Shown here piece after piece: positions 12,001 to 15,000 of a stretch of DNA of 20,092 nt. Positions within the stretch are counted from its first letter, which is position 1. Each line of letters begins with the position of its first letter. The stretch comes from a virus (Duplodnaviria; Heunggongvirae; Uroviricota; Caudoviricetes): positions 1-20,092 of IMG/VR virus record IMGVR_UViG_2541047908_000008. One strand, 5' to 3'. The position numbers were made by a program.

Positions 12001-15000
12001 GCATCCCTGAAGTTGCGAAGGCTTGTGGAGTTAGCGAAAGGGCTGTCTATAAGTGGCTCAAAAACGGCTTCCTCCCTAAGACTGAGTTTTTTGGGAAAAC
12101 TAAATACGCATCAAAAATCGAAGAGATTTCTGGTGGCAAATATCAAGCAAGCGAAATGCTTGAAATAAGCAAAAAGAACCTTCTGGCTGCATAAGTAACA
12201 CCGCTCTTTATCAATCTGCACCGCCGACAACGCGGTAACTAATTAAGCACTCATCGAAAGATGAGTGTTAGTGATTATTTACCTATGGAAATCTTAAGAA
12301 ATGGAACAAACAAGTTACAGCAAACTATCACAGCGCGACGTTGATCGTGCAGAAACAGATTTACTCATCAACCTGTCAACGCTTACACAGCGCGGTCTGG
12401 CAAAGATGATTGGCTGTCATGAATCGAAGATAAGCAGAACGGACTGGAGATTTATTGCTTCGGTCTTGTGTGCTTTCGGAATGGCATCAGACATCAGTCC
12501 GATTAGCAGGGCTTTTAAGTATGCGCTTGATGGACTCACCAATAAAAAACGCCCGGTGTGCAAGACCGAGCGTTCTGAACAAATCCAGATGGAATTCTGA
12601 GGGAATTACTGGATCAATCCACAGGAGTCATTATGACAAAACGTCGTAAGAAATACCAGGAAAAAGAAGAGATTCGACACCCTGATTCACCTGAGGGATT
12701 AGTGGTAGCCGCAGCAAATAACAGGGCGTTCGCAGAGCGCCTTGTTGGTGTTTACAGACTAGCCAAAGCAGGAGTGAAACATGGGCGTCGTTAAGTTAGC
12801 TGATTACAGGCCTCAACTGGAGGTCGTGGAGCATCGCGTGGCAGATACCGAAGATGGTTTCATGCGCGTTGCTAACGAGATTACCGACAGTCTGCTGATG
12901 GCTGATTTAACCGTCCGGCAGTTGAAGGTGATGCTCGCTATCATGCGCAAGACATACGGATTCAATAAGTCGACGGATCGACTCACAAACACGCAGATAG
13001 CAGCCATGACAGGTATTCATCACACTCATGTTTGCGCTGCCAAGCGCCAGCTTATTGAGCGTAAATTCCTCATTGCTGATGGCGTGAAAATCGGAGTGAA
13101 CAAGGTGGTTTCGCAGTGGATTAGCCAGGACAGCTTAACATTAGCTAAAGCAGCTAATAAAACATTAGCCAAGTCGGCTAATGGGTATAAGCCAAGTCAG
13201 CTAAACACAAAAGACAATATACAAAAGACAATAAATACAAATACCCCCTTACCCCCTAACGGGGGCGGCGATGGGCAGGTTAAACCTGAACGTCGCAAGG
13301 CAGAACGAATCGACTACGAATCCTTCCTGAACGCCTACAACACCGAAGTCGGTGACAGACTTCCACATGCTGTTGCGGTCAACGAGAAACGCAAACGTCG
13401 CTTGAAGAAAATCATTCCGCAACTGAAAACGCCAAACGTGGACGGTTTCAGAGCGTATGTCAGGGCGTTTGTGCATCAGGCCAAGCCGTTTTACTTCGGA
13501 GACAACGACACGGGCTGGACGGCTGATTTTGATTACCTGCTGAGGGAAGACTCGTTAACGGGAGTTCGGGAAGGGAAGTTTGCAGACAGGGGGATTGCAT
13601 GAGACAGGATATCGAAGCGAGCGTTATCGGTGGCCTGCTGATTGGTGGATTAACACCAACCGCCAGCGACGTTCTGGCAACGCTGGAGCCGGAAGCGTTT
13701 TCAATTCCGCTCTACCGTAAAGCCTTCGAGGTTATCCGCAAGCAGGCGCGAAACAGAAACCTAATCGACGCGCTGATGGTTGCCGAGGCGTGCGGAGAGG
13801 AGCATTTCACGTCAATCCTGATGACCAGCAAAAACTGCCCGAGTGCCGCAAACCTGAAGGGATATGCCGGAATGGTCGCGGATAACTATCACCGCCGTCT
13901 GGTGCTGGAAATCATGGATGAAATGCGTGAACCAATTCAGAGCGGAACCATCGACGCATCGAGTCAGGCGATGGACGAGCTTGTAAAGCGCCTTTCAGCC
14001 ATCAGAAAGCCCCGTGACGAGGTTAAACCTATACGGTTAGGGGAAATCATCACCGACTACACTGACACGCTTGACAGGCGTCTGAGGAACGGAGAAGAGT
14101 CAGATACCCTGAAGACCGGAATCGAAGAACTTGACGCTATCACCGGAGGGATGAACGCGGAAGACCTTGTGATAATCGCTGCTCGTCCTGGTATGGGGAA
14201 AGCAATGGCGCTAAGCGAAGGGATTTTACTTGCAGATGGCACCTGGACTACTCACGGAGAAGTCAAAATTGGCGATCGCATCGCGTCAATAGACGGGCTT
14301 CCTTCGGAGGTAATTGGCGTCTTCCCGCAAGGGAAGAAATTCACATATTTAGTCACCTTTGAAGACGGACGTAGCGTGAAATGTGCCGACAACCACTTAT
14401 GGGAAATTTCATCATCAAGATTTACTGGTAAACGCGTTGTTGATACTGATGCGCTGGCTGGGATGCTACAAAAAACACGTTATCAGGGAAGAATAAGAGT
14501 GCCATCCTTGACCGGAGACTTTGGTAAAAATATTCCCCTTGATGGTTGGGTTATTGGGGCTCTACTTGGTGACGGTTCGTTGATAAAAGGCATCAAATTC
14601 ACCAACTCGGAAGAATATGTCCTGAGCCGCATGAGTGATGCAATTGCACCACTGCGACTGGTTAAGGTAGGAGAGAATGATTATTTGATAAGCAACCAAA
14701 AAGGCCAGAAGAACCCACTATTGGACAAACTACGTGGCATTGGGATGATCGGGAAAGGTGCGTCCGAGAAGGAAATCCCAGCAGAAATTTTTAGTGCTAG
14801 CAAAGAAATACGTACCGGTGTTTTAACTGGCCTTCTCGAGACAGATGGCTGGGTTGAGAAGTCCGGATGCATCCGCTTTAGTTCATCCAGTCAGAAATTA
14901 GCTAAAGGATTAGTAAGGCTTGTTAGATCTTTAGGTGGAACCGCCAAAGAATCCAGCAGGACGGGAATAGTTTACACGTACAAAGGAGAGAAGCATGACG

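What the first reader, a model, noticed from the sequence alone, without database searches (positions are those of the whole stretch)
13121..13245. Origin of replication inside the O-like gene: four dyad-symmetric iterons plus an AT-rich tract
Four ~18-bp iterons with TTAGC(C/T)...(A/G)GCTAA symmetry are followed by a ~40-bp AT-rich tract and a poly-C/G element, all inside the initiator ORF. This is the lambda ori layout with a different iteron sequence, which defines the replicon specificity of this prophage. The iteron half-site resembles the repeats upstream of the rex-slot gene.
Basis: partly seen in the sequence, partly recalled or inferred. Interest (0 to 1): 0.45.

Follow-up and report, generated by a model that had tools for sequence, protein, structure and literature searches.

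The report
Lambda-type replication origin, HK97 variant

Summary
Four 17-bp dyad repeats (TTAGCY-N5-RGCTAA) lie at 13121-13204. A 37-bp AT-rich tract follows at 13205-13241, then a C-run/G-run element at 13242-13265. All of it lies in the linker of a Phage_rep_O initiator gene (12781-13602).

The repeat starts are spaced 20, 24 and 23 bp, exactly as for lambda iterons 1-4, and the region aligns without gaps to the lambda and P22 origins.

The gene is 98.5% identical to HK97 O and ST104 gene 18, and about 7% of complete E. coli genomes carry most of it.

In 21 diverged relatives from other Enterobacterales, synonymous sites are far more conserved in the repeats (0.85) and the AT tract (0.94) than in the N-terminal domain (0.48). 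Repeat half-sites are fixed while their centres drift. Iteron type changes together with the initiator's N-terminal domain. This is DNA-level selection on an initiator-binding array, not a repeated peptide.

I read it as a lambda-type origin of the HK97 specificity class, firing with a P22 gp12-type helicase. O binding and origin activity are inferred by homology, not tested.

Known kind, low interest.

The parts
12781..13602 (+). O-like replication initiator gene (273 aa), HK97 gp54 / ST104 gene 18 type. The origin lies inside it.
   Evidence: Pfam Phage_rep_O E = 1e-32; PHROG 345 'replication initiation O-like' E = 1e-103; 98.5% nucleotide identity to HK97 O.
12835..13119 (+). N-terminal origin-binding domain of the initiator (aa 19-113). 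It contains the invariant TGIHHTHVC motif that co-varies with iteron type.
   Evidence: Pfam match boundaries; alignment of 22 relatives; covariation with iteron type.
13121..13137 (+). Iteron 1, TTAGCCAGGACAGCTTA (weak right arm).
13141..13157 (+). Iteron 2, TTAGCTAAAGCAGCTAA.
13165..13181 (+). Iteron 3, TTAGCCAAGTCGGCTAA (perfect dyad).
13188..13204 (+). Iteron 4, TAAGCCAAGTCAGCTAA, abutting the AT-rich tract.
13205..13241 (.). AT-rich tract (22% G+C; two 14-nt repeats ACAAAAGACAATA at 13207-13234). Inferred DNA-unwinding element.
   Evidence: Synonymous codon identity 0.94. The core ACACAAAAGA is shared with lambda, P22 and nearly all related loci.
13242..13265 (.). C-run direct repeat TACCCCCT x2 plus the palindrome CCCCC-TAAC-GGGGG (13252-13265). 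It is the right-hand flank of the origin and has no demonstrated role.
   Evidence: Present in about 20 of 38 related loci, with stem length 4-6 changing on both arms.
13599..15992 (+). DnaB-like replicative helicase (P22 gp12 / HK97 P type). It is the partner the initiator's C-terminal domain is inferred to recruit. A 339-aa intein (14202-15218) interrupts its P-loop.
   Evidence: Pfam DnaB_C E = 4e-71, DnaB, LAGLIDADG_3, Hom_end; 99% and 95% identity to the two halves of HK97 P; intein sequence.

Best explanation
This is the vegetative (theta) replication origin of a lambdoid prophage, built like ori-lambda but with the HK97/ST104 iteron specificity.

Inferred mechanism:
1. Dimers of the O-like initiator bind the four dyad iterons through the N-terminal domain encoded just upstream of them.
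2. The four bound dimers assemble into an O-some-like complex. Its geometry is fixed by the invariant 20/24/23-bp spacing.
3. That complex destabilises the adjacent 37-bp AT-rich tract.
4. The initiator's C-terminal domain (P22 gp18 type) then brings in the phage's own DnaB-like helicase, encoded immediately downstream. This replaces the lambda P / host DnaB route.

Shown here: the anatomy, its statistical reality, its position, DNA-level purifying selection on half-sites and AT tract, and the co-switching of iteron and N-domain type. Inferred by homology with lambda and P22: binding, unwinding, helicase recruitment and actual origin activity.
For: - Repeats: four hits to the dyad pattern against 0.10 expected.
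- Geometry: spacing 20/24/23 equals that of the annotated lambda iterons, and the region aligns gap-free with the lambda and P22 origins.
- Host gene: a Phage_rep_O initiator, with the repeats starting right after its DNA-binding domain.
- Conservation of layout: in 21 of 23 HK97-type arrays, from phages and from prophages of more than 15 Enterobacterales genera, the spacing is unchanged. Iteron positions 1-5 and 13-17 are almost fixed, while central positions 9-11 vary freely.
- Synonymous sites: codon identity among same-amino-acid pairs is 0.85 in the iterons and 0.94 in the AT tract, against 0.48 in the N-terminal domain (Mann-Whitney p = 2e-10 and 2e-8). Inside each iteron it dips to 0.46-0.62 at the centre codons.
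- Covariation of specificity: IHHTH with TTAGC, IHRTH (L029) with GTAGCT-N5-AGCTAC, LPHK/APTK with TTACC..GGTAA, and lambda LPVKR with TCCCTC.
- Modularity: P22 shares only the part from 13197 rightward. Cronobacter phiES15 has the same iterons with a lambda-P-type loader. Stx2a phages and an ST131 prophage have the same C-terminal half with a different N-domain and different repeats.
- AT tract: the least stable segment of the gene.
- Literature: the lambdoid ori is iterons plus an AT-rich tract in the middle of O (PMC7466680). P22 gene 18 contains four ~20-bp repeats different from lambda's, and these initiators vary with origin specificity (PMC8022706).
Against: - No experiment on this iteron class turned up. 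The held library has no paper containing these iteron sequences, and the HK97 RefSeq record annotates no origin.
- The sequences in the conservation test are related and mosaic, so region-wide differences in divergence could partly reflect recombination history. The periodic half-site versus centre pattern argues against that, but it is not a formal phylogenetic test.
- Iterons 1 and 4 are imperfect dyads.
- The C/G palindrome is no more stable than shuffled sequence, and many relatives lack it. Its role in the origin is open.
- No DnaA box lies near the region.
Confidence: 0.9

Rival explanations
1. The repeats exist because the protein needs a repeated peptide linker (TLAKxAN repeated). On this view the DNA repeat is only a by-product of coding and has no cis-acting role.
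For: The repeats are in frame and encode L-A-K-x-A-N three times. Amino-acid positions there are as conserved as in the N-terminal domain: first and second codon positions score 0.85/0.90 against 0.85/0.91.
Against: - Third-position and synonymous conservation is much higher in the repeats than in the structured domain (0.84 vs 0.58; 0.85 vs 0.48, p = 2e-10).
- The conservation follows the dyad half-sites rather than the codons.
- Relatives with other iteron types encode quite different linker peptides in the same place: LPESGK, FTKSVK, AHEAAQ.
- The spacing is conserved to the base pair with lambda, whose peptide is unrelated.
Confidence: 0.03
2. The array is an initiator-binding site whose main job in this element is regulatory rather than origin firing. 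It could titrate O, auto-regulate or block transcription through O, or exclude superinfecting phages of the same replicon type.
For: In lambda, plasmid-borne iterons ITN3-4 together with oop inhibit rep-lambda phages without needing the AT-rich part (PMC3349717). Iteron arrays are therefore known to have such side effects.
Against: - The AT-rich tract is the most conserved part at synonymous sites (0.94) and directly abuts iteron 4, as an unwinding element should.
- The prophage carries an apparently complete replication module.
- Such effects would add to origin function rather than replace it.
Confidence: 0.05
3. The origin is a relic. The prophage cannot use it because the helicase gene is interrupted by a 1-kb insertion.
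For: The helicase ORF is 797 aa against 458 aa in HK97, with the insert inside the Walker A loop.
Against: - The insert is in frame and has intein hallmarks: Hint and LAGLIDADG matches, a terminal His-Asn, and a +1 Thr.
- The same interrupted gene is kept at 98.5% identity in about 48 Stx2a-converting phage genomes.
- The flanking extein halves are 95-99% identical to HK97 P.
Confidence: 0.02

Closest known systems
ori-lambda (phage lambda origin inside gene O: iterons ITN1-4, AT-rich region, right-hand palindrome)
   Same: - Location in the linker of a Phage_rep_O initiator.
- Four dyad repeats with start spacing 20/24/23.
- An AT-rich tract beginning ACACAAAAGACA directly after iteron 4.
- An inverted repeat to the right.
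- Gap-free alignment across the array.
   Different: - The iteron sequence is TTAGCC-N5-GGCTAA, against TCCCTC-N-GAGGGA in lambda.
- The right-hand palindrome is a C-run/G-run, not the lambda EcoRI-containing palindrome.
- The initiator's C-terminal domain is unrelated to lambda's.
- The partner is a phage DnaB-like helicase rather than the lambda P loader.
Phage P22 origin within gene 18. Four ~20-bp repeats are described in PMC8022706.
   Same: - Same layout and spacing.
- The AT-rich tract, C/G palindrome and C-terminal half of the initiator share 89.6% nucleotide identity from 13197 rightward.
- Same gp12-type helicase partner.
   Different: The N-terminal domain and iterons differ: P22 has TTTACC-N5-GGTAAA. 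The two should therefore have different origin specificity.
HK97 gene O (gp54), ST104 gene 18, and mEp213, Nil2, 2851 and Stx2-1717 O genes
   Same: Essentially the same sequence: 98.3-98.7% over the whole gene and 97.4-99.5% over the origin. Against HK97, the 84-nt iteron array differs at one base, in the centre of iteron 2.
   Different: None that matters for the origin. HK97's helicase lacks the intein. In the HK97 RefSeq stretch I examined, which covers O and P, no origin or iteron features are annotated.
Origins of Stx phages 933W and P27 (lambda-type iterons, six copies; PMC7466680)
   Same: Same architecture and the same experimentally supported mechanism class: O binding to iterons and an AT-rich unwinding region.
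   Different: Those phages use lambda-type iterons and O/P proteins, with six iterons. Here there are four iterons of another specificity.

Membership tests
Lambda-type (ori-lambda-like) phage origin | Lies inside the initiator gene, between its N-terminal DNA-binding domain and its C-terminal domain. | tested here: met
   The iterons start at 13121. The Phage_rep_O domain ends at aa 113, which is nt 13119. Homology of the C-terminal half to P22 gp18 starts at 13197.
Lambda-type (ori-lambda-like) phage origin | An array of about four direct repeats of 17-19 bp, each with internal dyad symmetry, spaced about two helical turns apart. | tested here: met
   Four copies against 0.10 expected. Spacing 20/24/23 is identical to the annotated lambda iterons and invariant in 21 of 23 relatives.
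Lambda-type (ori-lambda-like) phage origin | An AT-rich tract of about 40 bp immediately to the right of the last iteron. | tested here: met
   13205-13241 is 22% G+C and the least stable segment of the gene. It shares the ACACAAAAGA core with lambda and P22.
Lambda-type (ori-lambda-like) phage origin | The initiator belongs to the O family (PF04492). | tested here: met
   E = 1e-32, 112.9 bits against a cut-off of 28.7; PHROG 345.
Lambda-type (ori-lambda-like) phage origin | Iteron sequence is matched to the initiator's N-terminal domain (specificity module). | tested here: met
   Iteron type switches with N-domain type in five classes, independently of the C-terminal domain and partner gene.
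Lambda-type (ori-lambda-like) phage origin | The initiator binds the iterons and the fragment supports initiator-dependent replication. | not testable with these tools
   This needs EMSA or footprinting and a plasmid replication assay. It is inferred from lambda (PMC7466680) and P22.
HK97/ST104 iteron-specificity class | Iteron consensus TTAGCC-AAGTC-AGCTAA together with the N-domain motif MTGIHHTHVC. | tested here: met
   Consensus from 92 iterons. The motif is invariant in the alignment. The gene is 98.5% identical to HK97 O.
   The arrangement is GCTAA-N7/8-TTAGC, i.e. the arms are reversed. The same region is found with an unrelated initiator in E. coli ST131 strain 4993.

The most novel reading that the evidence does not exclude
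The O-family initiators may carry a simple, readable recognition code. In the relatives collected here, a single His-to-Arg change in the conserved IHHTH motif (L029, IHRTH) goes with a T-to-G change at the outer base of each half-site (TTAGC to GTAGC). The LPHK/APTK motifs go with TTACC. If that motif is the recognition helix, origin specificity of lambdoid replicons could be predicted, and re-engineered, from sequence alone. This rests on a handful of lineages and no structure: no solved relative was found.
Probability: 0.3. Interest if true: 0.35.

Novelty: already known. Interest (0 to 1): 0.15.

Why it matters
It matters mainly for annotation. It fixes the origin and the replicon-specificity class of this prophage: HK97/ST104-type iterons, a P22-type C-terminal module, and an intein-bearing helicase. 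It also shows that the mosaic joint between specificity module and helicase-recruitment module falls within the origin, at iteron 4 or the AT-rich tract depending on the partner. The comparative set gives a clean illustration of DNA-level selection inside a coding region, with fixed half-sites and spacing across many genera. The set could serve as a rule for annotating origins in the many O-family prophages whose records carry no origin feature. It does not open a new question.

Tried and rejected
- My first pattern search used a 6-nt spacer (TTAGCY-N6-RGCTAA) and found nothing. The true spacer is 5 nt.
- An Rfam scan of 11800-13700 gave no family.
- A DnaA-box scan gave one hit in the window, far from the origin and below chance expectation.
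- A PDB sequence search with the initiator gave no relative, so I attempted no structure-based assignment of the recognition helix.
- Folding the C/G palindrome as single-stranded DNA gave -5.4 kcal/mol, no better than shuffles (z = 0.5). I do not claim a hairpin function.
- A full-text search for the iteron sequences returned only unrelated primer matches.
- Searches for papers on the HK97 or P22 origins in the held library gave general statements only. The P22 genome paper PMC94795 is not held.
- I considered whether the GCTAA/TTAGC repeats at 10941-11085 are extra O sites and rejected it. The arm orientation is reversed, and the repeats travel with the P63C gene beside an unrelated initiator.
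- I considered whether they are cI operators and rejected it. The OR region at 11889-11966 shows different repeats.

Full report
**What is in the sequence**

The stretch 13120-13270 reads ATTAGCCAGGACAGCTTA-AC-ATTAGCTAAAGCAGCTAAT-AAAAC-ATTAGCCAAGTCGGCTAAT-GGGT-ATAAGCCAAGTCAGCTAA-ACACAAAAGACAATATACAAAAGACAATAAATACAAA-TACCCCCTTACCCCCTAACGGGGG.

- Repeats. The repeat finder reports four 18-nt copies with start spacing 20, 24 and 23. The dyad pattern TTAGCY-N5-RGCTAA with at most one mismatch occurs exactly four times in the 20-kb window, all here, against 0.10 expected from shuffles.
- Dyad quality. Iterons 2 and 3 are good dyads. Iteron 1 has a weak right arm and iteron 4 a weak left arm.
- AT-rich tract. 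The next 37 bp (13205-13241) are 22% G+C in a 47% G+C window. They contain two tandem 14-mers and are the least stable 37-bp stretch of the gene by nearest-neighbour energy.
- C/G element.

**Context**

The repeats lie inside ORF 12781-13602 (273 aa). Its residues 19-113 match Pfam Phage_rep_O at E = 1e-32, and it matches PHROG 345 'replication initiation O-like'. The first iteron begins one codon after that domain.

- Upstream are a cII homologue, a Cro-like protein and a LexA-type repressor.
- Downstream, with overlapping stop and start codons, is a DnaB-like helicase.
- The window as a whole is the left and early-right part of a lambdoid prophage: lambda-type integrase, Erf, SieB, NinB, Q and lysozyme.

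**Identity**

The initiator gene is 98.5% identical to HK97 gene O (gp54). It is 98.3-98.7% identical to gene 18 of Salmonella phage ST104, and to mEp213, Nil2 and several Stx phages. It occurs, with at least 80% coverage, in 395 of 5426 complete E. coli genomes. Across the iteron array the window differs from HK97 by one base, in the centre of iteron 2.

P22 itself matches only from 13197 rightward, which covers the AT tract, the C/G element and the C-terminal half, at 89.6%. Its N-terminal domain and iterons (TTTACC-N5-GGTAAA) are different.

**Is it a DNA element or just a repeated peptide?**

I collected diverged relatives. Three are phages: Klebsiella RCIP0114, Cronobacter phiES15 and Yersinia 06.16-1. 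A further 32 are prophage loci from a one-genome-per-species collection.

- Layout. Among 23 arrays of this type, 21 keep the spacing 20/24/23 and the same distance to the AT tract. This holds even though N-domain identity falls to about 53-60%. Iteron positions 1-5 and 13-17 are almost invariant, while positions 9-11 vary freely.
- Codon positions. First and second codon positions are equally conserved in the N-terminal domain and in the iteron stretch (0.85/0.91 vs 0.85/0.90). Third positions are not (0.58 vs 0.84).
- Synonymous sites. Taking only pairs with the same amino acid, codon identity is 0.48 in the domain, 0.85 in the iterons (p = 2e-10) and 0.94 in the AT tract (p = 2e-8). Within each iteron it falls to 0.46-0.62 at the central codons.

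That periodic pattern is what selection on a dimer-binding DNA site predicts. It is not what a peptide repeat or a recombination artefact predicts. The sequences are related, so the p-values are indicative rather than exact.

**Specificity module**

Iteron type switches with the N-terminal domain, and in particular with a short conserved motif.

| Motif in the N-terminal domain | Iteron half-site or repeat | Where seen |
|---|---|---|
| MTGIHHTHVC | TTAGCC..GGCTAA | HK97-type loci |
| KHHTH | TTAGC variant | SEN34 |
| IHRTH | GTAGCT-N5-AGCTAC | L029 |
| LPHK / APTK | TTACC..GGTAA | P22, Klebsiella ST11-VIM1phi8.2, 4A7, L031-L038 |
| LPVKR | TCCCTC | lambda |

The module is independent of what follows it.

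- The same TTAGCC iterons are joined to a lambda-P-type loader in phiES15 and to other C-terminal domains in RCIP0114 and the Yersinia phage.
- Conversely, the window's C-terminal half and helicase are joined to an unrelated, DnaD-like N-domain in Stx2a phages and in an ST131 prophage. Those carry CCGCACATGA repeats instead.
- The mosaic joints fall within the origin, at iteron 4 or the AT-rich tract depending on the partner.

**Comparison with the known**

Lambda's record annotates iterons at 39034, 39054, 39078 and 39101. That is the same 20/24/23 spacing. The window, lambda and P22 align without a gap from iteron 1 into the AT tract, which begins ACACAAAAGACA in all three.

PMC7466680 describes the lambdoid origin as iterons plus an AT-rich tract in the middle of O. 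It shows O binding by footprinting for lambda, P27 and 933W. PMC8022706 states that P22 gene 18 contains four ~20-bp repeats different from lambda's, and that these initiators vary with origin-binding specificity.

This is therefore a textbook architecture, in a sequence nearly identical to long-sequenced phages. I found no paper in the held library that spells out this particular iteron. The HK97 RefSeq stretch I examined carries no origin feature. That is an annotation gap, not a discovery.

**Mechanism**

Inferred, by homology with lambda and P22:
1. Initiator dimers occupy the four iterons.
2. They form an O-some-like complex and open the AT tract.
3. The C-terminal domain recruits the phage-encoded DnaB-type helicase.

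Shown here are the anatomy, the selection and the covariation. Not shown are binding, unwinding and firing.

**The C/G element**

It is present in about 20 of 38 related loci, with stems of 4-6 bp that change on both arms. As a hairpin it is no more stable than shuffled sequence, and lambda-type C-terminal modules carry a different palindrome instead. I list it as part of the origin's right flank without assigning it a role.

The region 10941-11085 lies upstream of the minus-strand P63C-domain gene at 9949-10941. It does contain seven TTAGC/GCTAA pentamers. They form GCTAA-N7/8-TTAGC palindromes such as GTAGCTAA-N8-TTAGCTAC, so the arms are reversed relative to the iterons.

The gene with this upstream region is rare: 2 of 5426 E. 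coli genomes cover most of the query. In ST131 strain 4993 it is 99.6% identical, yet it sits beside the unrelated initiator type. The repeats therefore belong to the inserted gene, most likely as operators for its own control. The resemblance to the iteron half-site is best taken as coincidence.

**Verdict**

The main interpretation is supported, and the side link is not. The feature is of an already known kind, and interest is low.

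Noticed in passing
window 14202-15218 (within helicase gene 13599-15992, + strand): The helicase gene carries a 339-aa intein in its Walker A loop (GMGK | intein | TELALK). The intein has a LAGLIDADG homing-endonuclease domain. It begins with Ala rather than Cys or Ser and ends THN, followed by Thr. It also has a Trp after block B (NHLW) and a Cys in block F (ECLCIMV). From memory, that combination resembles class 3 inteins known from mycobacteriophage DnaB. HK97 P lacks the intein. The same interrupted gene is 98.5% identical in about 48 Stx2a-converting phages, where it is paired with a different initiator N-domain.
   Followed up: partly
window 10941-11085, upstream of minus-strand gene 9949-10941: A 25% G+C intergenic region holds three GCTAA-N7/8-TTAGC palindromes, for example GTAGCTAA-N8-TTAGCTAC at 10944-10967. 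It precedes a 330-aa P63C-domain gene (PHROG 2384, function unknown) in the rex position downstream of cI. It looks like an operator set for an unidentified regulator. Only 2 of 5426 complete E. coli genomes cover most of this gene and its upstream region, both ST131.
   Followed up: partly
L010 8340-8560 (E. coli ST131 strain 4993 prophage) and L043 540-720 (Stx2a phage Stx2_EH0787): A different initiator type has a DnaD-like N-domain and about seven copies of a (G/A)CCGCACATGA-like repeat, encoding AHEAAQTTAHDAAHDEA. It is fused at the AT-rich / C-run junction to the same C-terminal domain as in the window. This is presumably a third iteron class for the same helicase module.
   Followed up: partly
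L039 and L040 (Enterobacter sichuanensis, Klebsiella grimontii prophages), about 2810-3190: In these O-family initiators of 376-382 aa, roughly 380 nt is inserted between the N-terminal domain and the AT-rich tract. The insert encodes ...GYIYVFAESECGPVKIGFTT.... From memory this looks like a GIY-YIG or T5orf172-type domain. No obvious iterons directly follow the domain.
   Followed up: no
L029 (Enterobacter sp. BRE11 prophage), just after the N-domain: Here the N-domain motif IHHTH is changed to IHRTH, and the iterons are changed from TTAGCC..GGCTAA to GTAGCTAACTCAGCTAC (three copies). This is a possible one-residue / one-base specificity switch.
   Followed up: no
window 7802-8485 (- strand): A 227-aa ORF matches Pfam Nmad5 (nucleotide modification associated domain 5) at E = 4e-71. 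It lies in the early-left region between the erf recombinase and sieB.
   Followed up: no
window 1-1284 (- strand): A pectinesterase-family ORF (E = 6e-14) lies immediately outside the integrase gene (1419-2489, -). It is probably host chromosome flanking the attachment site. The window therefore starts in host DNA.
   Followed up: no
window 11181-11888 (-) and 11889-11966: The last 73 nt of the cI repressor gene (11128-11200) match the cI genes of H-19B, ST2-8624 and BP-4795 at 97%. The rest of cI was not searched, so an H-19B immunity type is only suggested. The OR region shows repeats of ACTGAAAGTACG / AGTACGATAC type, unrelated to the origin repeats.
   Followed up: no
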